64,000 bases of DNA from an uncultured Chloroflexia bacterium (GTDB lineage Bacteria; Chloroflexota; Limnocylindria; Limnocylindrales; CSP1-4), in NCBI GenBank assembly GCA_963827965.1, contig CAWHCW010000007.1, positions 43,937-107,936 on the forward strand. The letters are read 5' to 3'. The translations under genes and the position numbers were made by a program. Below, one piece after another: positions 9,245-55,515 of the stretch; the first letter of the stretch is position 1; each line of letters starts with the position of its first letter. The notes below the pieces were generated by a model, which was not told where the DNA came from, did no database searches, and was given only the letters and a program-made list of their open reading frames with translations.

Positions 9245-9601
9245 ATGGAAGGCATCTGGTACGTCGTCGGCTTCGCCTTCGTGGGCGTCGCCTTCGTCTT
9301 CGTCGTGATCGGCGCCTCGTGGCTCATCAGCCACCGCACGAAGGGCAGTCCCCTCAAGGGCCTCCCGTACGAGAGCGGCATCCCGACGTACGGCGACACC
9401 CACGGGCGGTTCGGCGTCTCGTACTACATCTACGCGCTGCTCTTCGTCGCCTTCGACATCGAGGTGATCTTCATCTTCCTGTGGGCGCTGGTCGTGCGCG
9501 ACCCGATCCCCGGGCTGATCTCCTCCATGGGGATCTTCGTCCTCGTCCTCCTCCTGGGCCTGGCCTACGCCTGGCGCAAGGGCGTGTTGACGTGGCGCTG
9601 A
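9245..9601 (+). CDS. nuoA: NADH-quinone oxidoreductase subunit A
   Basis: [29 protein letters not shown]...[11 protein letters not shown]...[22 protein letters not shown]. Confidence 0.9.
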
Positions 9602-10326
9602 CCCGCCCGCCCGCCGGCGGCCCGCCCGCCGGCGCGCCCGGCAGCCGCCTGCCCGTCCCGGCCACGAAGGCCGAGGACGAGGTCGCCGAGGCGATCGTGG
9701 TCCCGAACGTGCTCTGGACGCCCGTCGATGACGAGGCCTACGGGGGCGTTCCCCTCGCCGAGACGCCGACCCTCGTTCTCAAGAAGTACGACGAGTCCGG
9801 CGAGGGACGCCGCAACGACGCCCGCTGGGGCGGCCTGGACGTGATCCCCACCAAGGCGGACTACGTCCTGGACCTGATCCGCCTCAACAGCCTCTGGCCG
9901 CTCCTCTCGGGGCTGGCCTGCTGCGCGTTCGAGATGATGTCCGGCGCCACGAGCAAGAACGACATGGACCGCTGGGGCATGTTCCCCTTCCGGGCCTCGC
10001 CGCGCCAGGCGGACGTCCTCATCGTGGCCGGCACGCTCACGACGAAGATGGCCGAGCCGCTCATCCGCCTCTGGGAGGAGATGCCCGAGCCGAAGTGGGT
10101 CGTCGCGATGGGCGACTGCACCTGCTCCGGGGGCCGCTACAAGCGGAGCTACAGCACGATCCAGGGGATCGACCGGGTCATGCCCGTCGACGTCTACGTC
10201 CCGGGCTGCCCGCCCCGCCCGGAGGGCCTCATCTACGCGATGATGAAGCTCCAGCACCTGGTGCGGGACCGCCGCGGCCACTGGCCGGAGCGCAACATCG
10301 GACCCACCGTCCCGGAGGGGATCTGA
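9592..10326 (+). CDS. nuoB: NADH-quinone oxidoreductase subunit B
   Basis: [12 protein letters not shown]...[13 protein letters not shown]...[12 protein letters not shown]...[10 protein letters not shown], the N2 cluster motifs. The GTG start overlaps the nuoA stop. Confidence 0.9.
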
Positions 10327-10328: not shown

Positions 10329-10880
10329 GTGGACCGCGCCTTCAAGGCACTCCTGGAGCGGAAGCTGGGCTCCGCGGTGGAGGGTCCGGTCCGCCAGCGC
10401 CACGACCAGACCGAGATCCGGATCCGGCCCGGCGACCTGCCGCAGGTGATGCGGACGCTGCACGACGAGCCGGACCTGCGCTTCGAGTACCTGGCCGACC
10501 TGTGCGGCGTGGACACGGGGACCACGTTCCAGGTGGTCTACCACCTCTGGAGCGACGTGACCCCCGACTGGCTGCGGGTCATCGTCGACGGGATCCCCCG
10601 CGACGAGCCGCGCCTCCCGTCGCTCACCTTCCTCTGGAAGGGCGCCGAGTGGATGGAGCGCGAGGCCTACGACATGTTCGGCCTCGTCTTCGAGGGGAAC
10701 CGCGACCTCCGCCGCATCTACCTGCCCGACGACTTCGTGAGCTTCCCGCTGCGCAAGGATTTCCACCTGGCCGACGACGTCGCGCGCTCGCCGGGCGGCG
10801 GGCTCCGGCCGATGGAGCGCGCCGGTCCTCCGCAGGACGCCGACGAGACCACGCTCCGGCGCACGTCGCCGGGGGCGTAG
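10329..10880 (+). CDS. nuoC: NADH-quinone oxidoreductase subunit C
   Basis: LCGVDTGTTFQVVYHLWS...FLWKGAEWMEREAYDMFGLVFEGNRDLRRIYLPDDF. Confidence 0.85.
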   Translation: MDRAFKALLERKLGSAVEGPVRQRHDQTEIRIRPGDLPQVMRTLHDEPDLRFEYLADLCGVDTGTTFQVVYHLWSDVTPDWLRVIVDGIPRDEPRLPSLTFLWKGAEWMEREAYDMFGLVFEGNRDLRRIYLPDDFVSFPLRKDFHLADDVARSPGGGLRPMERAGPPQDADETTLRRTSPGA

Positions 10881-10890: not shown

Positions 10891-12105
10891 ATGACGACAC
10901 CGACCCGACCCAGCCTCGACGACCCGGCGCTCCAGATCCCGGTCGACCACGCCGGCATCTTCGAGCCGCTCCCCGTCGCCCACACCGAGCGACAGCGGGA
11001 GTTCTACGCCCTCCGCGATGGCGAGATGCTCCTCAACATGGGGCCTCACCACCCTGCGACGCATGGCGTCCTGCGGGTCGTCCTCAAGATCAACGGGGAA
11101 CAGGTCGTGGACCTGGACCCGATCCTGGGCTACCTCCACCGGGGCGTCGAGAAGCTCTGCGAGAACGCCGACTACCACCAGTCGATCGCGTACATGGACC
11201 CCCTCGACTACCTGGCCTCGATCTTCTGCGAGTGGCCGGCGGTCATGGCCTTCGAGAAGCTCCTCGACGTCGAGGTCCCGCGGCGGGCCGAGTACATCCG
11301 GGTCATCGCCGGCGAGCTCAACCGGATCGCCAGCCACACCCTGTTCCTGGGCTTCATGGCCCTGGACCTGGGCGGGATCACCCCCATCCTGTGGAGCTTC
11401 TCCGAGCGCGACGAGATCGTGGAGATGCTGGCCGGCCTGACCGGCGCCCGCATGCTCTTCAACTACTTCCGGATCGGCGGCGTCAACGGCGACCTGAACC
11501 ACGAGTTCATGAGCCGCCTGGGCGACTGGATGGGCCGGGCGAGCGAGCAGCTCGAGGCCGGCACGGGCCTCCTGAACGAGAACGAGATCTTCGTCCGGCG
11601 CGCCCGGGGCATCGGCGTGATCGACCGCGAGACGGCCCTCCGGATGTGCGCCAGCGGGCCGAACCTCCGGGCGTCGGGCGTCCCGTTCGATCTCCGCCGG
11701 GCCCACCCCTACAGCGTCTACCCGGAGCTGGACTTCGAGATCCCGACCCGCCAGGAGGGCGACTCGCTGGCCCGCTACCTGCTCCGGACCGACGAGGTCA
11801 AGCAGAGCCTCCGGATCATCGACCAGTGCCTCCACCAGATCCCCGACGGGCCCGTCATGGCCCGCCTGCCGCGCCTCCTGCGCCCGCGCCCGGGCCGTGC
11901 CTTCGGCGCGGTCGAGGGACCACGCGGCCAGTACTCCACCTACGTCGTCAGCGACGGCACGGACCAGCCGTTCCGGATGCGGATCCACGACCCCAGCTTC
12001 CTGCACCTCCAGCTCCTGGGTCTCCTGATGCCGGGCAACCTGATCGCGGACACGATGGCGATCATGTCGTCCCTGGACCCGGTCATGGGCGGCGCGGACA
12101 AGTGA
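10891..12105 (+). CDS. nuoD: NADH-quinone oxidoreductase subunit D
   Basis: LNMGPHHPATHGVLRVVLKINGEQVVDLDPILGYLHRGVEKLCE...; intact 404 aa ORF. Confidence 0.95.
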   Translation: MTTPTRPSLDDPALQIPVDHAGIFEPLPVAHTERQREFYALRDGEMLLNMGPHHPATHGVLRVVLKINGEQVVDLDPILGYLHRGVEKLCENADYHQSIAYMDPLDYLASIFCEWPAVMAFEKLLDVEVPRRAEYIRVIAGELNRIASHTLFLGFMALDLGGITPILWSFSERDEIVEMLAGLTGARMLFNYFRIGGVNGDLNHEFMSRLGDWMGRASEQLEAGTGLLNENEIFVRRARGIGVIDRETALRMCASGPNLRASGVPFDLRRAHPYSVYPELDFEIPTRQEGDSLARYLLRTDEVKQSLRIIDQCLHQIPDGPVMARLPRLLRPRPGRAFGAVEGPRGQYSTYVVSDGTDQPFRMRIHDPSFLHLQLLGLLMPGNLIADTMAIMSSLDPVMGGADK

Positions 12106-12118: not shown

Positions 12119-13462
12119 ATGACCGCCGTGACGTCCTACTGGAACCGGCTGTCGCTCCCCTCGCGGATCCTGCTGGTCCTGGTGCCCACGTTCCTGGTGC
12201 TGGGCGGCGCCGCGACGGTCGCGATCGTCCTGCTCGTGCCGCCGCTCCTCGACTTCCTGGGGGCGAACCCGGGCCTCGTCCGCTTCGCCGTCGCCATGCT
12301 GCTGGTGATCGTGGCCACGATCCCGACGGCCTTCGTGATCATCCTCCTGGAGCTGAAGGTGATCGCCCGGATGAACCTCCGGGTGGGGCCCGACCGGGTG
12401 GGACCGTTCGGGGTGGCCATGAGCGTGGTCCACGGGCTCAAGGTGCTCGCCAAGGAGGACTACACGCCGCGCGGCGTCGACGTCCTGATCTTCACCCTGG
12501 CCCCGGTCGCGGTCTTCCTGACCACGATCATGAGCTTCCTCGTGATCCCCTTCGGGCCCGGCCTGATCGCCCAGGACTTCAACATCGCCCTGCTCTACTT
12601 CTTCGCGATCGGCGGCCTCAACGTCGTGGGCCTGATGATGGCCGGCTGGGCCAGCTTCAACAAGTACAGCCTCATCGGCGCGCTGCGCGCCGCGGCCCAG
12701 GCGATCAGCTACGAGATCCCGCTCACCCTCTCCGTGGTCGGCGTGATCATCCTGGCCGGGACCATGAGCCTGGGCTCCATCGTGCAGCAGCAGGCCGGCT
12801 CGGCCCTGGACTGGAACGTCTGGAAGCAGCCCCTGGGCCTGCTCATCTTCTTCGTCGCCGGCATCGCGGAGGTGAACCGGACCCCGCTCGACATGACCGA
12901 GGCCGACCAGGAGATCGTGGCCGGCTTCGCCACCGAGTACTCCGGGATGCGCTTCGGCTTCTTCTTCTTCGCCGAGTACGTCAACGTCTTCGTCATGTCG
13001 GCGATGACGGTCGTCCTCTTCTTCGGCGGCTGGAACGCGCCCTTCGACTGGCCGTTCCCCGTCACCCTGGCCCTCGACCCGGGGAGCCTGGGGCTGGGCC
13101 TCCTCTTCGTCGTGGGGCTGGCCCCGGTGCTGGGAACGGTGCTCCTGGCGCTTCCCTTCTGGCTCGGCTCGTCGCGGATCTCGGCACTCCGGGCGCTCCT
13201 GATCGGGTTCCTCCTCTTCAACGTCCTGGCCGTCGGCGCCTTCCTCGGCTGGGCCTTCATCAGCTTCGACTGGGTGGTGGGGCTCTTCTGGATGAGCGCC
13301 AAGAGCTACGTCTTCGTGCTCGTCTTCGTCCAGATGCGGGCGACCTTCCCGCGGGTCCGGGTGGACCAGCTGATGAGCTTCGCCTGGAAGTGGCTCCTGC
13401 CTGCCGCCCTCCTCAACATCTTCGTGACCGCCATCGCGGTCTCCATCCTGGGCAACCGGTGA
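12119..13462 (+). CDS. nuoH: NADH-quinone oxidoreductase subunit H
   Basis: RMNLRVGPDRVGPFG...NRTPLDMTEADQEIVAGFATEYSGMRFGFFFFAEY; intact. It follows nuoD directly, with no nuoEFG in between. Confidence 0.95.
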   Translation: MTAVTSYWNRLSLPSRILLVLVPTFLVLGGAATVAIVLLVPPLLDFLGANPGLVRFAVAMLLVIVATIPTAFVIILLELKVIARMNLRVGPDRVGPFGVAMSVVHGLKVLAKEDYTPRGVDVLIFTLAPVAVFLTTIMSFLVIPFGPGLIAQDFNIALLYFFAIGGLNVVGLMMAGWASFNKYSLIGALRAAAQAISYEIPLTLSVVGVIILAGTMSLGSIVQQQAGSALDWNVWKQPLGLLIFFVAGIAEVNRTPLDMTEADQEIVAGFATEYSGMRFGFFFFAEYVNVFVMSAMTVVLFFGGWNAPFDWPFPVTLALDPGSLGLGLLFVVGLAPVLGTVLLALPFWLGSSRISALRALLIGFLLFNVLAVGAFLGWAFISFDWVVGLFWMSAKSYVFVLVFVQMRATFPRVRVDQLMSFAWKWLLPAALLNIFVTAIAVSILGNR

Positions 13463-13472: not shown

Positions 13473-14306
13473 ATGAGCAGCATCCCGGGCCTCGGCCTGG
13501 CCAGGGGCATGGCCCTGACCCTGCGCCGCTTCTTCCAGCCCCCGGTCACGATCAAGTACCCCGAGGTGGACGCGGACGTCGCGGTGAAGTACCGCGGCCG
13601 GCTCCAGCTCCTCTACGACGAGCACGGCACGCTCAAGTGCGAGACCTGCTTCCAGTGCGCCCAGGCCTGCCCCATCGAATGCATCGACATGGGCGGCACG
13701 GACACCAAGGGCCGCTTCGCGGTCCACTGGGGCGCCGCCGAGACGTACGGCGAGCGGCGCACGGAGTCGGCCCTCCGCCGCGCCGGGCGCGAGGTCCCCG
13801 ACGCGCTCTTCACGGCCTTCGAGCCGGCCGACCTCGACGCCGTGGACGCCATCCTGGAGGACCACGACCACGACCCGCACCGGATGCTCTCCATCCTGGA
13901 GGCCGTCCAGGCCGAGTTCGGCAACCTTCCGGTCGCCGCGCTCAAGCGGATCAGCCATCGGACGGGCGCCTGGTACGCGATGATCTACGGCACCGCCAGC
14001 TACTACCACCACTTCCGCTTCGAGCGGACGGTGGAGGAGGTCGCCGTCTGCCGCTGCACGGCCTGCCTGATGGCCGGCGGGGGCCGGCTTGCCGATGCGA
14101 TCAGCGCCGGGCTGCGGACCGAGATGGGCCGGCCCACCCCGGACGGCCGGATCCGCTTCGCCTGGCTCTCCACGCACCTGCCCGGCGCCGCCGCCCCGCT
14201 CGTTGCCCTCGACGGCGAGGCCCAGCCGGAGGTGACCGCCGCCAACGCCACCGCCTGGGCCCAGGCGCTCGCCGGGGAGCACCCGGCCAGCCGCACGGTC
14301 CACTGA
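13473..14306 (+). CDS. fusion of an N-terminal NuoI fragment (single 4Fe-4S motif) with a NuoE-like thioredoxin-fold domain
   Basis: Residues 1-85 (FFQPPVTIKYPEV...RGRLQLLYDEHGTLKCETCFQCAQACPIECIDM...KGRFAVHW) align with the first half of NuoI/TYKY. Residues about 125-245 (RMLSILEAVQAEFGNLPVAALKRISHRTGAWYAMIYGTASYYHHFRF...VCRCTACLMAGGG...DGRIRFAWLSTHLPGAAAPLVALDGE) align with NuoE, but the second Cys pair is replaced by W/H. It is a single continuous frame; the other frames are junk. Confidence 0.7.
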   Translation: MSSIPGLGLARGMALTLRRFFQPPVTIKYPEVDADVAVKYRGRLQLLYDEHGTLKCETCFQCAQACPIECIDMGGTDTKGRFAVHWGAAETYGERRTESALRRAGREVPDALFTAFEPADLDAVDAILEDHDHDPHRMLSILEAVQAEFGNLPVAALKRISHRTGAWYAMIYGTASYYHHFRFERTVEEVAVCRCTACLMAGGGRLADAISAGLRTEMGRPTPDGRIRFAWLSTHLPGAAAPLVALDGEAQPEVTAANATAWAQALAGEHPASRTVH

Positions 14307-14310
14307 GCCG

Positions 14311-15642
14311 ATGACGACGATCCTCGCGACACCCGCCGGCCGGCCCCGCCCGATCCTCGGCGACGCCACGGGGCCCGTCCCGGCCGACCTCGGCGCCGCG
14401 GTCGCCGGCGGCGCGTTCGCCGCGCTGCGCTCCGTCGTCGGCGACCTGGGGCCCACCGGCACCGTGGCGACGATCGCCGCCTCCGGGCTGCGCGGCCGGG
14501 GCGGCGCCGGCTACCCGGCCGGCGACAAGTGGCGGGCCGTCGCCGGTGCCGCCGACCCCGTCCGGTACGTGGTCGCCAACGGGTACGAGGCCGACCCGGC
14601 GCAGGCAACGAACCGCGTCCTCATGGAGACGCGGCCCTTCGCCGTCGTGGAGGGCACCGCCATCGCCGCCCTCGCCGTCGGCGCCCGCGAGGCGATCATC
14701 GCGGTCCGGGCCGAGTACGCCGACGCGGTGCGAGCCCTGGAGGCCGCCGCCTTCGCCGCCGAGGAGGCCGGCTTCCTCGGGGCGGACGTCCTGCGCTCCG
14801 GCCGCGACGTCGCCGTCACCGTCCGCACCGTGCAGGGCGCCTACATGCTGGGCGAGGAGACGGTCCTCCTGCAGGCCCTGGAGGGGAAGCGCGGCCAGCC
14901 CGAGCAGCGCCCGCCGTACCCCACCGAGCGCGGCCTCTTCGGCCATCCGACCCTCGTCCACAACGTGGCCACGCTGGCGACCGTGCCCTGGATCGTCCTC
15001 AACGGCGTCGACGCCTTCCGCGCCATCGGCGACCCCGACGCGCCGGGCACCGTGCTCGTCGGGGTCTCCGGCGCCGTGGCCAACCCGGGGATCGCCGAGA
15101 TCCCGACCGGGACGACCCTCCGCGAGATCATCGACCTCGCCGGGGGCCTCGCCGCCGGGCACACGTTCAAGGCGGCCCTGGTCGGGGGCCCCAGCGGCGG
15201 GCTCCTGCCGGCGGAGCTCCTCGACACGCCCTACTCGTTCGACGCGCTGCGGGCGACCGGCGCCCACGTCGGCTCGGGCGGGGTCGTGATCGCCGACGAG
15301 GGCACCTGCATCGTGGACCTGGCCCGGCTCCTCGTCCGCTACGGCGCCGACGAGGCCTGCGGCAAGACGATCCCCTGCCGGATCGGCCTGCGCCGGCTGG
15401 CCGAGATCGGCCAGCGCTACGTCGACGGCACGGCCCGGCCCACCGATCCGAAGCTCCTCGCCGACCTCGCCGACGACTGCGCCGCGAGCGCGCTCTGCGA
15501 TCACGAGCGGCTGGCCCCCTCGCCGCTCCGCACGGCGATGCGATACTTCGGGCCAGAGATCGACGATCACATCCTCCGGGGCGTCTGTCCCGCCGGCGTC
15601 TGCAGCCCGATCCGGGTCGCCGGCGCGAGCACCGGAAGGTAG
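14311..15642 (+). CDS. nuoF: NADH-quinone oxidoreductase subunit F-like (FMN/NADH-binding 51 kDa family)
   Basis: GLRGRGGAGYPAGDKW, GEETVLLQALEGKRGQPEQRPPYP, and the Fe-S region EACGKTIPCRIG...ALCDH. The middle Cys of the usual CxxCxxC is Thr here. Confidence 0.85.
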   Translation: MTTILATPAGRPRPILGDATGPVPADLGAAVAGGAFAALRSVVGDLGPTGTVATIAASGLRGRGGAGYPAGDKWRAVAGAADPVRYVVANGYEADPAQATNRVLMETRPFAVVEGTAIAALAVGAREAIIAVRAEYADAVRALEAAAFAAEEAGFLGADVLRSGRDVAVTVRTVQGAYMLGEETVLLQALEGKRGQPEQRPPYPTERGLFGHPTLVHNVATLATVPWIVLNGVDAFRAIGDPDAPGTVLVGVSGAVANPGIAEIPTGTTLREIIDLAGGLAAGHTFKAALVGGPSGGLLPAELLDTPYSFDALRATGAHVGSGGVVIADEGTCIVDLARLLVRYGADEACGKTIPCRIGLRRLAEIGQRYVDGTARPTDPKLLADLADDCAASALCDHERLAPSPLRTAMRYFGPEIDDHILRGVCPAGVCSPIRVAGASTGR

Positions 15643-15656
15643 GCGACGACCGCACG

Positions 15657-18254
15657 ATGGCCGACCTGATCTCCCGCCCCACCGACCTCGTCTCGACGAC
15701 CCGCCCCGAGCCGGTCGTCGACAGCGTCGCCGAGCGCCTCTTCCGGACCCAGGCGCCGCAGCGGCCGCAGTCGACGCCCGTCATCCGCCTCGAGGTCGAC
15801 GGACGACTCGTCGAGGGCCGCGAGGGCCAGACGATCCTGGAGGTCTGCCGCGACAACGGGATCGAGATCCCGACCCTCTGCTACGAGCCGAAGCTGCCGG
15901 GCTTCGGCGCCTGCCGGATGTGCGTGGTGGAGGTGGAGGGCGAGGAGCACCCGCCGATCTCGTGCTCGCGGGCGGCCGAGACGGGGATGGTGGTCCGGAC
16001 CCAGACCGAGGAGGTCCGGCGGATCCGCCGGACGAACCTCGAGCTCATCTTCTCCGACCACAACGCCTACTGCCTGCCGCCCTGCCAGAACAAGTGCCCC
16101 AGCCACATCGACATCCCGGGCTTCCTGAAGGCGAACGCGGAGGGCGAGTTCCGCGAGTCGGCCCGCATCTTCAAGCGGACGATCCCCTTCCCCTCCATCC
16201 TCGGCCGCGTCTGCCCGGCGCCCTGCGAGGAGCACTGCCGCCGCGACGAGGTCGACGAGGCGATCGCCATCCGCGACAGCCACCGCTACGCCGGCGACCA
16301 GGTCCTCCGCGAGATGCTGGAGCAGGACCTCGACCCGCCCGTCCCCTTCGAGCTGCAGCCGACGTCGGGCAAGCGGGTGGCGGTCATCGGCTCGGGGCCG
16401 GCCGGCGCTTCGGCGGCCTACTACCTCCTGATCGCGGGCCATGACGTCACCATCTTCGAGCGCGACGAGGCCCCCGGCGGGATGCTCCGCTACGGCATCC
16501 CCGAGTACCGCCTGCCGAAGGAGCGCGTCCTCGACCCCGAATACGAGAGCGTCACCCGCCTGGGCGGGCGCTTCGTCTGCGGCCAGGCCCTGGGGCGCGA
16601 CTTCAGCCTGGACGACCTCCAGAACCAGGGCTTCGACGCGGTCGTGGTGGCCATCGGCTGCTACGACACGAACAAGCTGGGGATCCCCAACGAGGACGCC
16701 GACGGCGTCATCGACGGCCTGGCGTACCTCAAGATCGCCACCCTCGGCCTGACCTACCCGGGCCACGCCGGCACGCGGGTCGTCGTGATCGGCGGCGGCT
16801 TCACGGCGATGGACTGCGTCCGCACCTCGGTCCGCCAGGCCGCCGCCGAGGTGACCCTCGTCTACCGCCGCGACATGAAGGACATGCCGGCCTCGAGCGA
16901 GGTCCACGAGGCGATCGAGGAGGGCGTGACCACCATCTTCCAGGCCGGCCCGACCCGCGTCCTCGTCGACGAGGCGAGCGGCAAGGTCTCCGGCGTCGAG
17001 TTCATCCGGATGCAGCTCGGCGCGCCCGACGCGTCCGGCCGCCGGCGCCCCGAGCCGGCGCCCGGGACCGAGTTCGTCATCGAGTGCGACCGGGTCCTGC
17101 TCGCCATCGGCCAGGGGCCGGACCTCGCCTGGATCGGCCCCGGCAACGACGGGCCGCAGGCCACGAAGCAGCGCCGCCTCAAGGTGGACCCCGTCACCTT
17201 CGAGACGGGCCGGCCCGGCATCTTCGGCACGGGCGACGTCCGCACCGGCGCCGCCACCGTGGTCCAGGCGATCGCCGACGGGCGGCGCGCGGCGTACGCC
17301 GTGGACGCCTTCCTGCAGGGCCTGGACCTCGGCGCGATCCGGACCCGCCAGACGCTGGCGGAGCCGCAGCCGGAGTTCCTCTCCATCGTCCCCTTCACCT
17401 CCGAGGTGAAGGAGTCGCGCCATCGCCTCGGCAGCATGCCGGCGGAGGAGCGGCGGACCTCGTACATCGAGTACGAGATCCCCTACAGCCGCGAGGCGGC
17501 GGTGGCGGAGAGCACGCGCTGCCTGCAGTGCACCTGCGAGGCGATCGGCTTCTGCGACCTCCGCCGCCTCGGCATCGAGTACGGGACGACCCTCCGGACC
17601 CTGGAACCGCAGAACAACCGGGGGGCCGGCTTCCGGAGCGTCACCGAGAATCGCTTCACCGGCACGAACCACGACTACCTCCGCGACGACAGCCACGCCT
17701 TCATCCTCCGCGAGCCGTCGCGCTGCATCGACTGCGGCCGCTGCGCCCAGGTCTGCTCGGAGGTGGTGGGCGCCGCCTGCTACGACTTCATGCGGATCGG
17801 CTTCGACACGCTGGTGACGACGCCGCTCGACATGAGCCTCAACGACACGCCCTGCGTCTCCTGCGGCCGCTGCGCCGAGACGTGCCCGACGGGCGCCCTC
17901 ATGCCGAAGCCGCGGATCCTGGAGAAGTACGAGGTCGACGAGAGCCGCTGCATCCTCTGCGGGATCTGCGTGGACGCCTGCCCCTACGACGCCCTCCGCT
18001 GCGGCCCCGACTTCGAGCTCGCCCACACGAGCCGCGAGGAGCCGGAGATCGACCTCATCGCGATCGCCGCCGTGGATCGCGAGACGGAGCTGACCTACGT
18101 GCGCCGCGAGCGCGACTGGGCCCAGCGGGCCCTCGCCTCCGGGCGCGACATCGGGCCGCGGATGCTGCCCGTCCTCCCGGCCTCCATCGCGGGCGGGGGC
18201 GGGAAGGGCAACGGGAGCGAGCACGCGGCGCCGCCCCCCCACGGAACCGACTGA
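15657..18254 (+). CDS. NuoG-like iron-sulfur protein with an inserted GltD-type (glutamate synthase small-subunit-like) FAD/NAD(P)H domain and a NuoI-like 2x[4Fe-4S] C-terminus; no molybdopterin-like domain
   Basis: Residues 40-110 form a NuoG-type 2Fe-2S domain (VIRLEVDGRLVEGREGQTILEVCRDNGIEIPTLCYEPKLPGFGACRMCVVEV). Residues about 135-555 match GltD closely (CLPPCQNKCPSHIDIPGFL, GKRVAVIGSGPAGASAAYYL, VVVIGGGFTAMDCVRTSVRQAAAEVTLVYRRDMKDMPASSEVHEAIEEGV, GVEFIRMQLGAPDASGRRR, GIFGTGDVRTGAATVV). Residues 675-745 resemble the NuoG N4 region (FILREPSRCIDCGRCAQVC...CPTGAL). Residues 730-800 read CVSCGRCAETCPTGALMPKPRILEKYEVDESRCILCGICVDACPYDALRCGPDFELA, which is NuoI-like. Confidence 0.75.
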   Translation: MADLISRPTDLVSTTRPEPVVDSVAERLFRTQAPQRPQSTPVIRLEVDGRLVEGREGQTILEVCRDNGIEIPTLCYEPKLPGFGACRMCVVEVEGEEHPPISCSRAAETGMVVRTQTEEVRRIRRTNLELIFSDHNAYCLPPCQNKCPSHIDIPGFLKANAEGEFRESARIFKRTIPFPSILGRVCPAPCEEHCRRDEVDEAIAIRDSHRYAGDQVLREMLEQDLDPPVPFELQPTSGKRVAVIGSGPAGASAAYYLLIAGHDVTIFERDEAPGGMLRYGIPEYRLPKERVLDPEYESVTRLGGRFVCGQALGRDFSLDDLQNQGFDAVVVAIGCYDTNKLGIPNEDADGVIDGLAYLKIATLGLTYPGHAGTRVVVIGGGFTAMDCVRTSVRQAAAEVTLVYRRDMKDMPASSEVHEAIEEGVTTIFQAGPTRVLVDEASGKVSGVEFIRMQLGAPDASGRRRPEPAPGTEFVIECDRVLLAIGQGPDLAWIGPGNDGPQATKQRRLKVDPVTFETGRPGIFGTGDVRTGAATVVQAIADGRRAAYAVDAFLQGLDLGAIRTRQTLAEPQPEFLSIVPFTSEVKESRHRLGSMPAEERRTSYIEYEIPYSREAAVAESTRCLQCTCEAIGFCDLRRLGIEYGTTLRTLEPQNNRGAGFRSVTENRFTGTNHDYLRDDSHAFILREPSRCIDCGRCAQVCSEVVGAACYDFMRIGFDTLVTTPLDMSLNDTPCVSCGRCAETCPTGALMPKPRILEKYEVDESRCILCGICVDACPYDALRCGPDFELAHTSREEPEIDLIAIAAVDRETELTYVRRERDWAQRALASGRDIGPRMLPVLPASIAGGGGKGNGSEHAAPPPHGTD

Positions 18255-18266: not shown

Positions 18267-18800
18267 GTGGCGATTCCGGACACCGTGCCGGTCCTGGGGA
18301 TGAGCTGGAACGACCTGCTCTTCCTCTTCCTCGCGGGGGCGCTGCTCGGCAGCGCCCTGCTGGTGGTCACCCTCCGCGACATCATCCGCTCCGGCATCGC
18401 GATGATCGCCGCGTTCGCCGCCCTGGCCGGCATCTACGTCATGCTGGGCGCCCCGCTCGTCGCCGCCGCCCAGGTCCTCGTCTACATCGGGGCGATCGCC
18501 GTCCTGATCCTCTTCGCCGTCATGCTGACCCAGGCCAAGAACGCGCCGGTCCGCCTCGTCTTCCAGACCCAGGCGATCCCGGCGGCCGTCGCCGCGATCG
18601 TCCTGGCGGTCATCGTGGCCCTGAGCGTCACGGCCACGGACTGGGGAGACGTCGGCCAGCGGGTGGTCACGGGCACCGACGCCCTCGCCCGGCTCCTCTT
18701 CACCGACTACGTGCTCCCCCTGGAGATCGTCAGCGTGCTCCTGCTGGCGGCCGTCATCGGCGGCGTCTACCTCGCGAAGCGGGAGGACCGTGACGCATGA
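18267..18800 (+). CDS. nuoJ: NADH-quinone oxidoreductase subunit J
   Basis: GTG start; hydrophobic 177 aa protein in the position and with the pattern of NuoJ ([17 protein letters not shown]). Confidence 0.85.
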
Positions 18801-19133: not shown

Positions 19134-21152
19134 GTGTTCGAACACCTGATCCCGAGCGCCGCCCCCTGGCTCGCCGCGGCCGTCGAGGCCGAGCCGAGCG
19201 CCGCCAGCGGCGCGATCAACCTGGTGCCGCTGCTGCTCCTGCTGCCGATCGCCGGCTTTGCCTTCACGGCGCTCTTCGGGCGGCGGATCGGGCGCTTCGC
19301 CTTCCTGGTCCCGCTGCTCCTGGTCGTGGCCACCTGGGCGATCGCCATGGTGGTCGTCTACGAGGCGCTCAGCGGCGGCTTCGGCGAGCACGGGGCGGGG
19401 ATCACGCTCTGGACCTGGATCCCGGCCGGCGCCTTCCAGGTGGAGATGGGCTTCTACGTCGACCAGCTGACGGCCTGCCTCCTGATCGTCGTGACCACGA
19501 TCGGGATGCTGGTCCACCTCTACTCGGTGGGCTACATGGCCCACGACCCGGGGCGCTGGCGCTTCTTCGCCTACCTCAACCTCTTCATGTTCAGCATGCT
19601 CCTGCTGGTCCTGGGTGACAGCTGGCTGACCGTCTTCGCCGCCTGGGAGCTGGTCGGGCTCAGCTCGTACCTCCTCATCGGGTTCTGGTACCCCAGGCGC
19701 TCCGCCGCGCTCGCGGCCAAGAAGGCGTTCATCGTCAACCGCGTCGGCGACCTCGGCTTCGCCCTCGGCATCATGCTCATCTGGGTCAGCACCGGGACGC
19801 TCGACATCCGGCAGTCCTTCGAGCTGATCGCGAAGCTCGACCCGACCACGATCGCCGCGATCGCCCTCCTCGTCTTCTGCGGCGCCGTGGGCAAGAGCGC
19901 CCAGTTCCCGCTCCACGTCTGGCTGCCCGACGCGATGGAGGGCCCGACGCCGGTCTCCGCCCTCATCCACGCCGCGACGATGGTCAACGCCGGCGTCTAC
20001 CTCGTGGCCCGGGCCAACCCGATCTTCGCCCTCGCCCCGGGAGTGATGGTGATCGTGGCCGCGATCGGCATCTTCACCGCGATCCTGGCGGCCTCGATCG
20101 CCTTCACCCAGACCGACATCAAGCGCGTCCTGGCCTACTCGACGCTCTCCCAGCTGGGCTACATGTTCGCCGCCCTGGGCGTGGGCGCCTTCGCCGCCGC
20201 GATCTTCCACCTCATGGCCCACGGCTTCTTCAAGGGCCTCCTCTTCCTTGGCTCGGGCAGCGTGATCCACGCCGTCCACGAGGAGCAGGACATGAACAAC
20301 ATGGGCGGCCTGTGGCGGAAGATCCCGGTCACCCACTGGACGATGTTCGTCGGCACCCTGGCCATCGCCGGGCTCCCTCCCCTGGCCGGCTTCTTCAGCA
20401 AGGACGAGATCCTGGGCGAGAGCTTCAAGTTCGGCTTCACCTGGGTCTGGGCCATCGGCCTCGTCGTCGCCGTGATGACGGCCTTCTACATGTGGCGCCT
20501 GATGGGCAAGACCTTCTACGGGGAGCCGTCGGCCCACGCGAGGCGGATCTGGGACCGGATCCACGAGTCGACCTGGACCATGACCGTGCCGCTCGTCCTC
20601 CTCGCCATCCCGTCGGCCCTCATCGGCATGGCCCTGGGCCTCCCGTTCGGGAGCTCGACCCTCAAGGGCTGGCTGGAGCCGGTCTTCGCCGAGTCGGAGG
20701 AGCTGCTCCACCCCGAGACACACCCCTTCGCGCTGGCCGGCATCGACGGCGCCCTGATCCTCGTCAGCGTCGCCGCGGCGACCGTCGGGCTGGTCGTCGC
20801 GATCTGGCTCTTCGGGGCGTTCCGACGGGCCGGGAACCGGTCCCGGGTCGAATCGCTCAGCGGGGCCAACGGCGCCACCCGCTTCCTCTACCGGGCCACC
20901 CTGAACAAGTGGTGGTTCGACGACCTGAACCACCTCCTCTTCATCGTGATCGGCGGCCGCGTGGCCGGGGCGATGTGGTGGTTCGACCGGACCATCGTCG
21001 ACGGGACGGTGAACGGCGTGGGCCGACTCACCGTCGACGCCGGCCGCGGCCTCCGCCGCGTGCAGACGGGGCGCGTCCAGAACTACGCGCTGGGCATCGC
21101 GATCGGGCTGATCGTGATGGCCGGCTCGTACCTCCTCATCGCGGCCAGGTAG
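19134..21152 (+). CDS. nuoL: NADH-quinone oxidoreductase subunit L
   Basis: Intact 672 aa antiporter-like subunit (WEL VGLSSYLLIGFWY..., HAATMVNAGVYLVAR, C-terminal long-helix region). Confidence 0.95.
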   Translation: MFEHLIPSAAPWLAAAVEAEPSAASGAINLVPLLLLLPIAGFAFTALFGRRIGRFAFLVPLLLVVATWAIAMVVVYEALSGGFGEHGAGITLWTWIPAGAFQVEMGFYVDQLTACLLIVVTTIGMLVHLYSVGYMAHDPGRWRFFAYLNLFMFSMLLLVLGDSWLTVFAAWELVGLSSYLLIGFWYPRRSAALAAKKAFIVNRVGDLGFALGIMLIWVSTGTLDIRQSFELIAKLDPTTIAAIALLVFCGAVGKSAQFPLHVWLPDAMEGPTPVSALIHAATMVNAGVYLVARANPIFALAPGVMVIVAAIGIFTAILAASIAFTQTDIKRVLAYSTLSQLGYMFAALGVGAFAAAIFHLMAHGFFKGLLFLGSGSVIHAVHEEQDMNNMGGLWRKIPVTHWTMFVGTLAIAGLPPLAGFFSKDEILGESFKFGFTWVWAIGLVVAVMTAFYMWRLMGKTFYGEPSAHARRIWDRIHESTWTMTVPLVLLAIPSALIGMALGLPFGSSTLKGWLEPVFAESEELLHPETHPFALAGIDGALILVSVAAATVGLVVAIWLFGAFRRAGNRSRVESLSGANGATRFLYRATLNKWWFDDLNHLLFIVIGGRVAGAMWWFDRTIVDGTVNGVGRLTVDAGRGLRRVQTGRVQNYALGIAIGLIVMAGSYLLIAAR

Positions 21153-21163: not shown

Positions 21164-22710
21164 ATGAACGTCGGCGACGTTCCCCATCCTGAGCGTCATC
21201 ACCTTCCTGCCGCTCGGCGGGGCGATCGTCGTGGCCCTCATCCCGCGCCGCAACGTCGGCGCGATCCGGGGCGCGGCGCTCGCCTTCTCGCTGGCCACCT
21301 GGGTGGTCAGCCTCTGGCTGCTCCTGGGCTACCTGCCCGGCCGGGACACCGGGACGGCGATGGCCTTCCAGTACGTGGAGCAGCTGGACTGGATCCCCCT
21401 CTTCGGCATCCAGTACAAGCTCGGCGTCGACGGCCTCGGCGTGGCGATGGTGGTCCTCACCACGACGCTGACCTGGATCTCCATCCTGGCCAGCTTCTCG
21501 CCGATCAAGGAGCGGGTGAAGGAGTACATGGTCTCCTTCCTCGTCCTCGAGGTCGGGATGCTCGGCGTCTTCGTCTCGCTGGACCTCTTCCTCTTCTACA
21601 TCTTCTGGGAAGTCGTCCTCGTCCCGATGTACCTGATCATCGGGATCTGGGGCGGGGCGAACCGCATCTACGCCACGATCAAGTTCGTCCTCTACACCCT
21701 GGTCGGATCGCTCCTGATGCTGGTGGCGATCCTGGCCACGGCGTTCACCTACCAGGCGGCGACCGGCAGCTGGGCTGGTGCCTTCGACCTCCAGAACCTG
21801 GCCGGCCACGGCTTCGACCGGACCTTCCAGCTGTTCGCCTTCGCCGCGTTCGCGCTCGCCTTCGCGATCAAGGTCCCCATGTTCCCGTTCCACACGTGGC
21901 TGCCCGACGCCCACGTGGAGGCGCCGACGGCGGGCTCGGTGATCCTCGCCGGGGTTCTCCTGAAGCTCGGCGCCTACGGCTTCATCCGCTTCGCGATCCC
22001 GCTCTTCCCGGAGGGGGCCCAGGCCTTCGCCCCCCTGATCATCGTGCTGTCGGTCATCGCGATCATCTACGGCGCGATCGTGGCCCTGGTGCAGCCGGAC
22101 CTCAAGAAGCTGGTGGCCTACAGCTCCGTCAGCCACATGGGCTTCGTGACGCTCGGGATCTTCGTCTTCCAGCAGCAGGCGCTCCAGGGGGCGATCCTCC
22201 AGATGGTCAACCACGGCCTCATCACCGGCGCCCTCTTCCTCCTGGTGGGCGTGATCTACGAGCGGACGCACGACCGCACGATCGCGAAGATGGGCGGGCT
22301 CGGGGCGCCCATGCCCGTCTACTCGGCGGCGTTCGGCTTCTTCGTCTTCGCCTCGGTCGGCCTGCCCGGCCTGGCCGGGTTCGTCGGCGAGTTCCTCGTC
22401 TTCCAGGGCACCTTCGCGTTCAGCCCGCCGACGGCCGCGACGATCGCCTTCGTCATGATCCTCGCCGCCGCCTATCTCCTCTGGATGCAGCAGCGCGTCC
22501 TGTTCGGGCCTCTCTCCGACTTCCTGAAGGGGACTGGGGCAGCACCTGACGGACATGCGCCCGGTGGAGATCCTGACGCTCGCCCCGCTGGGGGCGCTGA
22601 TCGTGATCCTGGGCCTCTTCCCCGGCCTCGTCCTGGACCTCATCGCCGGATCGGTCAAGGCCGTCCTCGCCGCCGTGGACCCGTCGCTCGCGACGGCGAT
22701 CGGGAACTGA
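21164..22710 (+). CDS. nuoM: NADH-quinone oxidoreductase subunit M (two frameshifts)
   Basis: ATG at 21164 (MNVGDVP), then a shift at about 21180 into the frame holding ILSVITFLPLGGAIVVALIP...FPFHTWLPDAHVEAPTAGS... An extra 10-nt run (actggggcag, about 22524-22533) shifts into the frame encoding HLTDMRPVEILTLAPLGALIVILGLFPGLVLDL...AIGN stop. Confidence 0.85.
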
Positions 22711-51177: not shown

Positions 51178-51602
51178 GGACGTGTCACTCCGGGTGAGCG
51201 GGCGGGACGGTCCGGTGGGCTGATGTCGAGGCGAGTCCCACCGGTGGATTCGTGGTGGGTCTCATCTTCGCATGAACGTCATCACCGTATTCATCATGGT
51301 GTGGATGTCGTGGACGGGCGAGCGCGGTCGTGCGCACCGCGGCCGTGGAGCACCACCGGCCGGGACGTGGACAGCTCGGCGCGCGCCGGGGGCCGCGCGA
51401 GGGGACGAGGGGTGGACAGGCCGGCGCCGGCCGGCGCGAAAGCCCGCGGCGACCGACGCCCGGAGGCCGAGCTGTCGACACCGCACGCCCCGGTCCGCCG
51501 ACGCCCTGCCCACGCGACGGGTGCGGCCATCCACGGTCCAGCGGCGGAGATCCACGAGGGACGGCGCGACGACCGCCGGGAGACGGGGCGCGTCCCGGGC
51601 GC
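51178..51602. other. candidate oriC: dnaA-dnaN spacer with at least 6 DnaA-box-like 9-mers and an AT-richer stretch
   Basis: Boxes with an (A/G)TCCAC core on both strands: TGTGGATGT (about 51300), CGTGGACGG (51309), CGTGGACAG (51366), GGTGGACAG (51411), CCATCCACG (51526), AGATCCACG (51548). The stretch 51262-51300 (tcatcttcgcatgaacgtcatcaccgtattcatcatgg) is about 45% GC against a 72% background. Confidence 0.55.
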
Positions 51603-53454: not shown

Positions 53455-53482
53455 TTGACACGCCGGGGTGGCGTTCCATAAT
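53455..53482 (+). promoter_or_regulatory. putative rpmH promoter (TTGACA-16-CATAAT)
   Basis: TTGACA at 53455-53460, CATAAT at 53477-53482, about 110 nt upstream of the rpmH ATG. Confidence 0.4.
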
Positions 53483-53483
53483 C

Positions 53484-53530: not shown

Positions 53531-53595
53531 GCCTCTTCGAATCGCGCGGCGGTTCGATCCGGAGGCTGGACACCAAGAGGAAGACACGACGCCCG

Positions 53596-55511: not shown

Positions 55512-55515
55512 GACC

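What the first reader, a model, noticed from the sequence alone, without database searches (positions are those of the whole stretch)
13473..18060. nuoI appears split by the cassette: the N-terminal half is fused to the NuoE-like domain and a NuoI-like 2x[4Fe-4S] core sits at the C-terminus of the G-like protein
The protein at 13473 begins like NuoI (YPEV...RGRL...CETCFQCAQACP...KGRFAVHW) but stops after the first CxxCxxCxxxCP motif and continues as a NuoE-like domain. The last roughly 70 residues of the G-like protein (17844-18060) read CVSCGRCAETCPTGALMPKPRILEKYEVDESRCILCGICVDACPYDALRCGPDFELA. This matches the NuoI pattern CP.GA(I/L)...P...R...YE(I/V)(N/D)..RCI(F/L)CG.C.(E/D)ACP...DFE(M/L)A and sits directly ahead of nuoJ. 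This looks like an in-frame insertion of the E-F-G cassette into an ancestral nuoI, or a complementation arrangement where the two polypeptides rebuild the TYKY ferredoxin and so dock the flavin module at the NuoI position.
Basis: partly seen in the sequence, partly recalled or inferred. Interest (0 to 1): 0.75.

Follow-up and report, generated by a model that had tools for sequence, protein, structure and literature searches.

The report
Complex I with a split NuoI subunit
In this soil bacterium the gene for one core iron-sulfur subunit of respiratory complex I (NuoI) has been cut in two by three inserted genes for an NADPH/NADH-oxidising flavoprotein module. This arrangement is conserved in hundreds of species and appears undescribed, and it probably both wires and anchors a new kind of electron-input module on the enzyme.

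Summary
The split is real. The 277-aa protein at 13473-14306 carries NuoI residues about 1-80 (docking helix and first CxxCxxCxxxCP motif) fused to a NuoE/BfuC-like domain. The 865-aa protein at 15657-18254 ends with NuoI residues about 83 to the end. The halves match the NuoI profile at positions 1-64 and 71-113, and joined they give one collinear match of 99.6 bits.

One correction: only the second quoted motif (CILCGICVDACP) is NuoI. CVSCGRCAETCP is the native last motif of an NfnA/StnC-type subunit. The "G-like" protein is not NuoG. It has a [2Fe-2S] domain, a GltD-type FAD/NADPH domain and a HydA-type dicluster domain, with the NuoI half replacing the dead formate-dehydrogenase-like domain.

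The order nuoD-H-[I-N/E]-[F]-[G/I-C]-J-K-L holds in 59 of 60 Limnocylindria loci, and at least 477 species genomes carry the fusion. All cluster cysteines are invariant. The same junction occurs in Thermoleophilia (with a full bifurcating-type BfuB) and in a third lineage.

Most likely the halves assemble in trans to bind N6a/N6b, stapling an Nfn-like NAD(P)H module to the quinone module. Trans-assembly and substrates are inferred. No published description was found.

The parts
9245..9601 (+). nuoA
   Evidence: ORF and start-codon scan. Its homologue in related loci carries PF00507.
9592..10326 (+). nuoB. Carries the N2 ligands: tandem [10 protein letters not shown] and GCPP. Has an N-terminal extension.
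   Evidence: Translation, start scan. The motifs were read directly from the sequence.
10329..10880 (+). nuoC
10891..12105 (+). nuoD. The quinone-site His (HPATHG) and Tyr (DPLDY) are present.
   Evidence: translation. 45% identical to NuoD of L081 and L086.
12119..13462 (+). nuoH. At 447 aa it is longer than usual.
   Evidence: PF00146, E 2e-103
13473..13721 (+). NuoI N-terminal half (residues 1-83 of the 277-aa protein): docking helix, YPE, RGRL and first motif C56-x2-C59-x2-C62-x3-C66-P (nt 13638-13673)
   Evidence: TIGR01971 positions 1-64. Matches NuoI chains 8e9g_I and 2fug_9. The Cys residues are invariant.
13728..13829 (+). Conserved linker (residues 86-119, WG..ETYGERR.ESALRR.GR.VPD), specific to Limnocylindria
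   Evidence: Many invariant columns in this stretch. Absent from the Thermoleophilia family.
13830..14306 (+). NuoE/BfuC-like thioredoxin-fold domain. Invariant C193, C195, C198 and H235. The canonical second Cys pair is missing.
   Evidence: PF01257. Alignments. AF2 pLDDT about 90. Best structural match is NfnC 9bp5_C, TM 0.85.
14311..15642 (+). F-like flavoprotein (443 aa): BfuB/NuoF core only. N3/B1 motif is C350-GK-T353-IP-C356 ... C396-D-H398. Y92 stands in place of the Asp that I recall, from memory, as an FMN contact. The H420/C426/C431 site is retained.
   Evidence: Pfam. PDB: HydB 363 bits, NfnB 358 bits, NuoF 297 bits or less. Conservation.
15657..16055 (+). G-like protein, N-terminal region with the [2Fe-2S] domain (Fer2_4; C75, C86, C89, C103)
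   Evidence: PF13510. Cys invariant in 54 of 54 sequences.
16056..17336 (+). GltD/NfnL-type insert: Fer4_20 (two [4Fe-4S]) plus FAD and NADPH Rossmann folds (GSGPAG; GGGFTAMD...VYRR)
   Evidence: PF14691 and PF07992. Aligned to 9BOV_A and 8OH5_C. Y403, R404 and R405 are invariant.
17337..17696 (+). Linker carrying C622, C625, C627 and C633. These probably complete the His-ligated cluster begun at H135/C139.
   Evidence: Aligned to NfnA/StnC. Cys invariant. The assignment of ligands to the cluster is inference.
17697..17903 (+). HydA/NuoG-type 2x[4Fe-4S] domain (motifs C690-C700 and C733-C743). This is native to NfnA/StnC and is not NuoI.
   Evidence: PF22117 covers residues 683-748. Alignment to 9BOV_A and 8OH5_C runs through CPTGA.
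17904..18056 (+). NuoI C-terminal half (residues 750-800): second motif C765-x2-C768-x2-C771-x3-C775-P (nt 17949-17984) and DFELA
   Evidence: TIGR01971 positions 71-113. Aligns to NuoI 83-128 and TYKY 99-143. Cys invariant.
18057..18254 (+). NuoI-type C-terminal tail and stop codon
   Evidence: Conserved up to about residue 845 across loci.
18267..18800 (+). nuoJ
   Evidence: PF00499
18797..19108 (+). nuoK
19134..21152 (+). nuoL
21231..22705 (+). nuoM, with an apparent frameshift near 22530. The true C-terminus continues in the +1 frame.
22724..24199 (+). nuoN

Best explanation
The window holds the complex I operon of a Limnocylindria (Chloroflexota) bacterium. Its nuoI gene was cut, in frame, in the loop between its two [4Fe-4S] motifs. 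The cut was made by insertion of a three-gene flavoprotein cassette derived from the NfnABC/StnABC branch of the Bfu family.

NuoI residues about 1-80 (NuoH-docking helix plus motif 1) became the N-terminus of the BfuC/NuoE-like subunit. NuoI residues about 83 to the end (motif 2, DFELA, tail) became the C-terminus of the NfnA/StnC-like subunit. There they replace the catalytically dead formate-dehydrogenase-like domain.

This much is shown by sequence: the gene order, the domain boundaries, the complementary collinear halves, the invariant ligands, and conservation across at least 477 genomes and two phyla.

The rest is inferred. In a 2x[4Fe-4S] fold each cluster takes three Cys from one motif and one Cys from the other. 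The two polypeptides must therefore come together to bind N6a and N6b. That would complete the wire to N2 in NuoB and to the quinone site in NuoD, and it would staple the input module to the membrane arm by two covalent tethers.

Electrons would enter as NADPH at the GltD-type FAD, and probably as NADH at the F-like FMN. They would meet at the HydA-type dicluster domain. The cluster branch that is a non-functional remnant in Stn (C2 to C1) would here lead straight into the NuoI clusters and on to menaquinone, coupled to proton pumping.

The Limnocylindria form looks like a reduced, probably non-bifurcating derivative, because its F-like subunit has lost the ferredoxin-side domains. Thermoleophilia keep a full BfuB.
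For: - Complementary NuoI profile matches: positions 1-64 and 71-113, and 99.6 bits when the halves are joined.
- Collinear, non-overlapping alignment to solved NuoI/TYKY chains.
- The C-half taken alone is NuoI-specific in three lineages.
- The cassette's best solved relatives are Csac NfnABC (9BOV), Stn (8OH5) and T. sibiricus NfnABC (9N5U). G aligns to NfnA 3-698, exactly up to where the Fdh-like domain starts.
- Tight operon spacing of 4-14 nt between genes.
- Synteny holds in 59 of 60 loci.
- All FeS Cys residues are invariant.
- The NuoI halves are the best-conserved segments of both proteins.
- The same junction is present in Thermoleophilia (L081, L083) and in a third lineage (L086).
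- The N2 and quinone-site motifs are intact in NuoB and NuoD (read from the translations).
- The Stn electron path and its dead C2/C1 branch are described in PMC10482914.
- NADPH oxidation at the NfnA FAD is reported in PMC11829005.
- The AF2 model of the fusion folds the E-like domain confidently but leaves the lone NuoI half unfolded, with pLDDT below 50.
Against: - There are no biochemical or structural data. Assembly in trans is inference.
- A multimer prediction was not possible, and the single-chain model of the G-like protein was too poor to use (mean pLDDT 50).
- Generic dicluster HMMs (Fer4_7, Fer4_9) also fit motif C733 plus motif C765 as one domain.
- The F-like subunit has family-wide substitutions: the middle N3 Cys is Thr, CGLGQ has become CDHER, and NADE has become NGYE. 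The E-like domain lacks two canonical Cys residues. The NADH/FMN arm may therefore work differently or not at all.
- I could not scan a whole Limnocylindria genome for a separate intact nuoI or a second nuo operon.
Confidence: 0.78

Rival explanations
1. The last two motifs of the G-like protein (C733-C743 and C765-C775) form a self-contained dicluster ferredoxin that acts as the whole NuoI equivalent. The half on the E-like protein would then be vestigial or would bind something else.
For: Generic Pfam dicluster models (Fer4_7, Fer4_9, Fer4_21) match residues 729-780 as one unit. The 21-residue spacing is typical of ferredoxins.
Against: - Motif C733 is homologous to the second motif of the HydA/NuoG-type domain, which pairs with motif C690 in the solved NfnA and StnC structures (PF22117 covers 683-748).
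- Under this rival, motif C690 and the motif on the E-like protein would both be left without a partner.
- The NuoI profile covers only positions 71-113 in G.
- The N-half on the E-like protein is invariant at all four Cys residues and is the best-conserved part of that protein.
Confidence: 0.1
2. The cassette encodes an independent soluble Nfn-like transhydrogenase that merely sits in the nuo operon. The working NuoI would be a normal gene elsewhere in the genome.
For: - Whole genomes could not be scanned here.
- Some genomes carry an orphan second copy of the fusion gene outside nuo (L065 and L068).
- A related cassette is attached to pyruvate:ferredoxin oxidoreductase genes (L085).
Against: - The fusion keeps NuoI's N-terminal NuoH-docking segment (profile positions 1-21), whereas the Por-linked version has lost it.
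- There is no nuoI in the operon or in the 64-kb window.
- G lacks the Fdh-like domain that mediates tetramer formation of soluble Stn and Nfn.
- Gene order is fixed in 59 of 60 loci and in two phyla.
Confidence: 0.07
3. The split is an assembly error, a frameshift artefact or a decaying pseudogene.
For: The same window does contain an apparent frameshift in nuoM.
Against: The same architecture appears in thousands of independent metagenome proteins and in at least 477 species genomes. Ligands are invariant and purifying selection is strong.
Confidence: 0.01

Closest known systems
NuoI / Nqo9 / TYKY (NDUFS8), the two-cluster ferredoxin subunit of complex I
   Same: It has the same sequence family for both halves, the same position between nuoH and nuoJ, the same two CxxCxxCxxxCP motifs, the same N-terminal docking segment, and the same DFELA motif and tail.
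   Different: Here it is encoded as two pieces on two different polypeptides, separated by about 4.2 kb (nt 13722-17903) that encodes the E-like domain, the F-like protein and most of the G-like protein. In every solved complex I that matched, NuoI is one chain.
NfnABC (C. saccharolyticus 9BOV/9BP5; T. sibiricus 9N5U) and StnABC (S. ovata 8OH5), the Bfu-family electron-bifurcating transhydrogenases
   Same: These are the best solved relatives of all three cassette proteins. They share the [2Fe-2S] domain, the GltD-type FAD/NADPH insert, the HydA-type dicluster in the large subunit, the BfuB-like FMN subunit and the BfuC-like thioredoxin-fold subunit.
   Different: - They are soluble tetramers held together by the Fdh-like domain (PMC10482914, PMC11829005). 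That domain is absent here and is replaced by the NuoI C-half.
- The window's F-like subunit lacks the N-terminal [2Fe-2S] domain and the C-terminal dicluster domain needed for ferredoxin reduction.
- The Thermoleophilia relatives keep both domains.
Nuo-Bfu and Mbh-Bfu, predicted membrane-bound Bfu complexes (Schut et al. 2022, PMC9304861)
   Same: [quoted passage not shown]
   Different: - Nuo-Bfu was described as a 14-subunit A-N operon in Deferribacteres, Proteobacteria, Planctomycetes and Nitrospirae.
- The passages I read mention no NuoI split and no GltD/NADPH domain in the Nuo-Bfu large subunit. [quoted passage not shown]
- Neither Limnocylindria nor Thermoleophilia is mentioned in those passages.
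- I did not inspect those loci myself.
Mbx-like operons of Thermotoga and proteobacteria in which NuoI is replaced by a gltD-related flavoprotein (Degli Esposti 2015, PMC4758237)
   Same: A GltD-type NAD(P)H flavoprotein sits at the NuoI position of a complex I-like enzyme.
   Different: There NuoI is substituted outright. Here NuoI is retained but split, and the GltD domain is one part of a three-subunit Nfn-type module.
Canonical N-module NuoE-NuoF-NuoG
   Same: The E- and F-like folds are homologous, and so are the first [2Fe-2S] domain and the dicluster-fold domain of NuoG.
   Different: - Gene position differs: between H and J rather than between D and H.
- There is no molybdopterin-like domain.
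- There is an extra FAD/NADPH domain.
- The ligand sets of the N3-like and N1a-like clusters are altered.

Membership tests
NuoI/TYKY | N-terminal segment that docks on NuoH, then YPE...RGR before motif 1 | tested here: met
   Residues 12-76 match TIGR01971 positions 1-64. Residues 10-80 align to NuoI 8-78.
NuoI/TYKY | Two CxxCxxCxxxCP motifs that bind N6a and N6b | tested here: met
   Motif 1 is C56-C66 on the 13473 protein. Motif 2 is C765-C775 on the 15657 protein. All eight Cys residues are invariant. Actual cluster binding was not tested.
NuoI/TYKY | A single polypeptide of about 140-230 aa | tested here: not met
   The halves lie on two proteins separated by the cassette.
NuoI/TYKY | Gene between nuoH and nuoJ in the operon | tested here: met
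   The N-half starts 10 nt after nuoH. The C-half-bearing gene ends 12 nt before nuoJ.
NuoI/TYKY | Forms one ferredoxin fold next to N2 in the assembled enzyme | not testable with these tools
Single-chain models were uninformative for this region.
Bfu family (BfuABC: NfnABC/StnABC/HydABC) | BfuB with FMN plus the B1 cluster, and also the extra N-terminal [2Fe-2S] and C-terminal dicluster domains (B2-B5 sites), per PMC9304861 | tested here: not met
   The window F-like protein is 443 aa and aligns only to HydB 130-540 and NfnB 115-525. The feature is met in Thermoleophilia relatives, whose BfuB is 636-643 aa with both extra domains.
Bfu family (BfuABC: NfnABC/StnABC/HydABC) | BfuC with a four-Cys [2Fe-2S] cluster (C1) | tested here: inconclusive
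   The fold is NfnC-like (TM 0.85). The ligand set here is C193, C195, C198 and H235 instead of CxxxxC...CxxxC.
Bfu family (BfuABC: NfnABC/StnABC/HydABC) | Nfn/Stn-type large subunit: [2Fe-2S] domain, GltD-type FAD/NADPH insert and HydA-type dicluster | tested here: met
   E 4e-157 to 9BOV_A over residues 42-774. Pfam finds Fer2_4, Fer4_20, Pyr_redox_2 and Fer4_Nqo3.
Bfu family (BfuABC: NfnABC/StnABC/HydABC) | C-terminal Fdh-like (molybdopterin-fold) domain of NfnA/StnC | tested here: not met
   The alignment stops at NfnA residue 698 of 1178. The NuoI C-half follows instead.
Bfu family (BfuABC: NfnABC/StnABC/HydABC) | Electron bifurcation with ferredoxin | not testable with these tools
   This needs enzymology. 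Absence of the ferredoxin-side domains argues against it in the window form.
Canonical NuoEFG N-module | NuoF N3 motif CxxCxxC...C, and NuoG with a molybdopterin-like domain | tested here: not met
   The motif reads ACGKTIPC, with an invariant Thr. No molybdopterin-type Pfam domain is found in the G-like protein.
Complex I (quinone-reducing, not hydrogenase-type) | NuoB tandem-Cys N2 ligands, and NuoD His/Tyr quinone-site residues | tested here: met
   [15 protein letters not shown] and GCPP in NuoB. HPATHG and DPLDY in NuoD. All were read from the translations.

The most novel reading that the evidence does not exclude
The split-NuoI cassette may define a new class of respiratory complex I whose input module has three nucleotide or ferredoxin sites. 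In the Thermoleophilia form, which has a full BfuB, the enzyme would be an electron-bifurcating or confurcating proton pump linking NADPH, NADH, ferredoxin and menaquinone in one machine. In the Limnocylindria form it would be a proton-pumping NADPH (and NADH) dehydrogenase. A naturally split two-cluster ferredoxin, reassembled from two polypeptides, would serve as a portable docking connector. That connector appears to have been reused to attach the same module to pyruvate:ferredoxin oxidoreductase (L085).
Probability: 0.35. Interest if true: 0.9.

Novelty: new variant of a known kind. Interest (0 to 1): 0.8.

Why it matters
- **A new exception for complex I.** Complex I is one of the most studied enzymes in bioenergetics. 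As far as I know, NuoI/TYKY is a single chain in every characterised form, and it was one chain in every solved complex I that matched here. A natural version in which TYKY is rebuilt from two polypeptides, each dragging a flavoprotein subunit to the quinone module, would be a new way of attaching an electron-input module.
- **Direct use of NADPH.** It would give complex I a GltD-type NADPH site. That could let abundant soil and freshwater bacteria (Limnocylindria, Thermoleophilia) respire NADPH directly.
- **A possible bifurcating pump.** In the form with a full BfuB, ferredoxin, NADH and NADPH could be coupled to quinone reduction and proton pumping.
- **Annotation.** Databases label these genes 'NAD(P)H-dependent oxidoreductase subunit E', 'FAD-dependent oxidoreductase' or 'formate dehydrogenase major subunit'. 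Pathway tools will therefore probably report complex I as lacking NuoI and NuoG in these taxa.
- **Protein engineering.** It offers a natural precedent for split-ferredoxin complementation.

Tried and rejected
1. **Chimeric structure prediction.** I tried a single-chain chimera (NuoI N-half, linker, C-half) as a stand-in for a multimer.
2. **AF2 of the G-like protein.** With 29 close homologues the mean pLDDT was 50, and residues 562-815 were below 50. The model cannot settle motif pairing, so I did not run a fold search on it.
3. **AF2 of the fusion protein.** Only the E-like domain is confident. The NuoI half is below pLDDT 50. This fits a half-domain but proves nothing.
4. **Literature searches.** I searched for Limnocylindria or Ellin6529 with complex I or NADH, for split NuoI, for NuoI with GltD, and for Nuo-Bfu. 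I found no description of this arrangement. The library holds open-access papers only.
5. **Second NuoI or N-module in the window.** None was found in the 64-kb window.
6. **Recent horizontal acquisition of the cassette alone.** Rejected. The cassette proteins are about as diverged between lineages (27-51%) as the core Nuo subunits (38-62%).
7. **Artefact or pseudogene.** Rejected on conservation.

Full report
**Context**

The window is about 74% G+C. A tightly packed + strand operon runs in this order:
- nuoA (9245-9601), nuoB (9592-10326), nuoC (10329-10880), nuoD (10891-12105), nuoH (12119-13462)
- three cassette genes (13473-14306, 14311-15642, 15657-18254)
- nuoJ (18267-18800), nuoK, nuoL, nuoM, nuoN (to 24199)

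Gaps between nuoH, the three cassette genes and nuoJ are only 4-14 nt, and purine-rich RBS-like stretches precede the starts of the 13473 gene and of nuoJ. No separate nuoI, nuoE, nuoF or nuoG exists in the operon or anywhere else in the 64-kb window.

NuoB keeps the tandem-Cys N2 ligands, and NuoD keeps the His/Tyr quinone-site residues (read from the translations). The enzyme is therefore a quinone-reducing complex I and not a hydrogenase-type relative.

**Checking the observation**

The 277-aa protein at 13473 matches the NuoI model TIGR01971 at profile positions 1-64 with its residues 12-76 (49.8 bits). Its residues 10-80 align to residues 8-78 of the solved M. smegmatis NuoI. After one CxxCxxCxxxCP motif (C56-P67) and a conserved linker, it continues as a thioredoxin-like [2Fe-2S] NuoE-type domain (PF01257, residues 125-261).

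The 865-aa protein at 15657 matches the same NuoI model at positions 71-113 with residues 753-795 (48.2 bits). Joining the two pieces gives one uninterrupted match to positions 1-113 of 121, at 99.6 bits.

Against solved chains the halves are collinear and do not overlap:
- M. smegmatis NuoI: residues 8-78 and 83-128
- Arabidopsis TYKY: residues 23-88 and 99-143

The break therefore lies in the loop between the two cluster motifs, with about four residues unaccounted for.

The C-terminal segment taken alone scores 46 bits on NuoI models against 30 bits or less on generic ferredoxins. The same holds for the equivalent segments of two other lineages.

**Corrections to the observation**

The quoted string CVSCGRCAETCPTGAL...CILCGICVDACP is not a NuoI 2x[4Fe-4S] core.
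- The first motif aligns residue for residue with the second motif of the HydA/NuoG-type dicluster domain of NfnA (9BOV_A) and StnC (8OH5_C). Their alignment to the window protein runs from residue 42 to about 775 and stops where their formate-dehydrogenase-like domain begins.
- Pfam's Fer4_Nqo3 domain covers residues 683-748, that is, motifs C690-C700 plus C733-C743, as one unit.
- Only C765-C775, DFELA and the tail are NuoI.

G thus carries half a NuoI, which makes a partner half necessary. The protein also does not end at 18060. The stop codon is at 18252-18254.

**What the cassette is**

All three proteins have their best solved relatives in the Bfu-family transhydrogenases:
- C. saccharolyticus NfnABC (9BOV/9BP5)
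- S. ovata StnABC (8OH5, identified through PMC10482914)
- T. sibiricus NfnABC (9N5U)

The large subunit has a [2Fe-2S] domain, a GltD/NfnL-type insert and the HydA-type dicluster. The insert holds two [4Fe-4S] sites, a GSGPAG FAD fold, and a GGGFTAMD...VYRR NADPH fold with invariant Y403, R404 and R405.

The F-like subunit scores 358-363 bits on HydB and NfnB, against 228-297 bits on true NuoF. It aligns only to their core (HydB 130-540). It therefore lacks the N-terminal [2Fe-2S] domain and the C-terminal dicluster domain of bifurcating BfuB.

The AF2 model of the fusion protein gives a confident E-like domain (pLDDT about 90). Its best structural matches are NfnC, HydC and StnA (TM 0.85-0.87), ahead of complex I NuoE (TM 0.5-0.7).

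**Conservation and distribution**

- The fusion protein has thousands of database relatives. The top 120 are full length (61-93% identity), and the named ones are Chloroflexota or Ca. Limnocylindrales.
- A scan of one genome per species found at least 477 genomes. The best 80 are all named as Chloroflexota MAGs, and every name more specific than phylum or class belongs to Limnocylindria (Limnocylindrales, Ca. Limnocylindrus, Ca. Aquidulcis).
- The order nuoD-H-[I-N/E]-[F]-[G/I-C]-J-K-L is kept in 59 of 60 loci that have room downstream.
- All FeS cysteines of the large subunit are invariant in 54 of 54 sequences, including the NuoI motif. The four Cys of the NuoI N-half are invariant too.
- The NuoI pieces are among the best-conserved parts of both proteins: 0.82 against 0.67 for the E-domain, and 0.89 for G residues 750-800.

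The split is therefore under purifying selection. It is not an artefact.

**Beyond Limnocylindria**

A search of 1.84 billion cluster representatives found more distant full-length fusions at 26-38% identity.

One family has at least 1201 proteins, and its named members are Thermoleophilia. It sits in nuoA-B-C-D-H-[I-N/E, 253 aa]-[BfuB, 636-643 aa]-[G-like, 824 aa]-J-K-L-M-N.
- Its large subunit ends ...CISCGKCAETCPTGAITTNPRLLIRYDLDESRCIFCGDCVEACPYDALEQTSYFELA. This is the same junction.
- Its BfuB is complete and canonical, with ESCGKCVPC, NGDEGDPGAF, an N-terminal [2Fe-2S] domain and a C-terminal dicluster.
- Its E-domain has the canonical four Cys.

A third lineage (L086) has the same junction and a trimmed F-like subunit.

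Between lineages the cassette proteins are about as diverged (27-51%) as NuoA, B, D, H and L (38-62%). The arrangement is therefore old and has been inherited or transferred as a whole operon. The window's version looks like a reduced derivative of a full Nfn-type Bfu module.

**Family-specific oddities in the window's version**

- *F-like subunit.* The N3/B1 motif reads C350-GK-T353-IP-C356, with Thr invariant where Cys is expected. The fourth ligand region is C396-D-H398-E-R, invariant, where relatives have CGLGQ. NADE has become NGYE, with invariant Y92. The HydB-type H420/C426/C431 site is kept.
- *Third lineage.* It shows a different swap: ACGRCIPG together with SLCGLC. This suggests that ligands were exchanged rather than the cluster being lost.
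- *E-like domain.* It keeps C193 and C198, adds invariant C195, and has H235 at the position of a lost Cys. A 3Cys-1His site is plausible.

These points are read from the sequence. Their effect on cofactors is inference.

**How it most likely works**

In a 2x[4Fe-4S] fold each cluster uses three Cys from one motif and the CP-Cys of the other. This is established knowledge of the fold. With one motif on each polypeptide, N6a and N6b can only form if the two chains assemble.

Assembly would place the E-like and large subunits on the NuoI site of the Q-module. NuoI's own N-terminal docking segment is retained, and the module would be joined to the membrane arm through two covalent tethers.

In Stn, electrons run FAD-C7-C6-C5-C4-C3-B1-FMN. 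The C2 to C1 branch toward the dead FdhF-like domain is described as a non-functional remnant (PMC10482914). In the window protein that branch ends 21 residues before the NuoI motif. It is therefore the obvious route to N6a/N6b, then N2, then quinone.

I propose a T-junction. NADPH (FAD arm) and NADH (FMN arm) would both feed the quinone arm, with proton pumping by NuoH and NuoJ-N. The window form lacks the ferredoxin-side domains that Schut et al. treat as diagnostic of bifurcation (PMC9304861). It is therefore probably a plain NAD(P)H:quinone oxidoreductase. The Thermoleophilia form could bifurcate or confurcate.

All steps from assembly onward are inferred.

**Comparison with what is known**

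- Schut et al. predicted Nuo-Bfu (Geobacter and others) and Mbh-Bfu (Dehalococcoides), with Bfu genes embedded in the membrane-complex clusters. The passages I read do not mention a split NuoI, a GltD domain in the Nuo-Bfu large subunit, or these taxa.
- Degli Esposti described mbx-like operons in which a gltD-like flavoprotein substitutes for NuoI.
- Eight literature searches on these taxa and features (papers read) found no description of the present arrangement.
- Databases label the genes generically.

I file it as a new variant of a known kind. It fails single-chain NuoI membership, and in the window form it fails the BfuB domain criterion. By sequence it nevertheless works like NuoI plus an Nfn-type input module.

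**Limits**

- No multimer prediction was possible.
- The large-subunit model was too poor to use.
- I could not check whole genomes for an additional one-piece nuoI.
- Substrate use is inferred from motif conservation with characterised enzymes.

Noticed in passing
L081:6255-20762; L083/L084 (whole loci): Thermoleophilia-type operons carry the same split NuoI, but with a complete bifurcating-type BfuB (636-643 aa, with an N-terminal [2Fe-2S] domain and a C-terminal dicluster) and a canonical four-Cys E-domain. This could be a four-substrate complex I using NADH, NADPH, ferredoxin and quinone.
   Followed up: partly
L085:7819-15933: The gene order is porG-porD-porA-[NuoI-type half plus NuoE-like, 280 aa]-[full BfuB]-[GltD-type large subunit, frameshifted in this contig]-[...CPTGALTFNQRELASFNIDESRCILCRECVGICPVDAL...NHFEDA fused to the PorB TPP domain]. 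The split halves still score as NuoI (82.8 bits when joined) but lack NuoI's N-terminal docking segment. The cassette and its split connector seem to have been reused to dock on pyruvate:ferredoxin oxidoreductase.
   Followed up: partly
L086:4693-12917: A third lineage has nuoABCDH, then the split cassette, with a trimmed F-like subunit whose N3-like motif is ACGRCIPG...SLCGLC (third Cys replaced by Gly, extra Cys beside the fourth). No nuoJ follows on this contig.
   Followed up: partly
L065:10001-10867; L068:5784-6536: Some Limnocylindria genomes carry a second, orphan copy of the NuoI-N/NuoE fusion gene (58-60% identity) outside any nuo operon. In L065 it lies next to a 2-oxoglutarate dehydrogenase E1/E2 fusion and a DUF255 thioredoxin-like gene. 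Its partner is unknown.
   Followed up: partly
window 14311-15642: The F-like subunit has invariant, family-wide substitutions at cofactor sites. The N3/B1 motif is C-GK-T-IP-C (Thr in place of Cys). CDHER replaces CGLGQ after the fourth Cys. NGYE replaces NADE/NGDE (Tyr in place of the Asp that I recall, from memory, as an FMN contact). The H420/C426/C431 site matches HydB's HI..KCPAGVC segment. I believe, from memory, that this segment is the Zn hinge.
   Followed up: partly
window 14049-14180: The E-like domain has lost the canonical second Cys pair of the [2Fe-2S] site. It has invariant C193, C195, C198 and H235 instead, which suggests a 3Cys-1His ligand set.
   Followed up: partly
window 22500-22705: nuoM appears frameshifted near 22530. 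The expected C-terminus (GLGQHLTDMRPVEILTLAPLGALIVILGLFPG...AIGN*) continues in the +1 frame, while the called ORF runs on into low-complexity sequence that overlaps nuoN. Several related MAG loci align through the same frame, so this may be a recurrent assembly error.
   Followed up: partly
window 7827-8987: A PF02636 (Methyltransf_28) gene sits on the same strand, ending 258 nt upstream of nuoA. From memory, this is the family of the complex I assembly factor NDUFAF7/MidA, which methylates the NuoD homologue.
   Followed up: no
window 12119-13462 and 9592-10326: NuoH is unusually long: 447 aa against 363-375 aa in the other split-NuoI lineages, with about 80 residues of insertions relative to the Pfam model. 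NuoB has an N-terminal extension of about 45 residues relative to where it aligns to NuoB of L081 and L086.
   Followed up: no
window 50266-56649: dnaN (50266-51261, minus strand), dnaA (51603-53108, minus strand), yidC (54102-55511) and a jag/KhpB-like gene (55267-56649) lie here. The nuo operon therefore sits about 30 kb from the likely replication origin.
   Followed up: no
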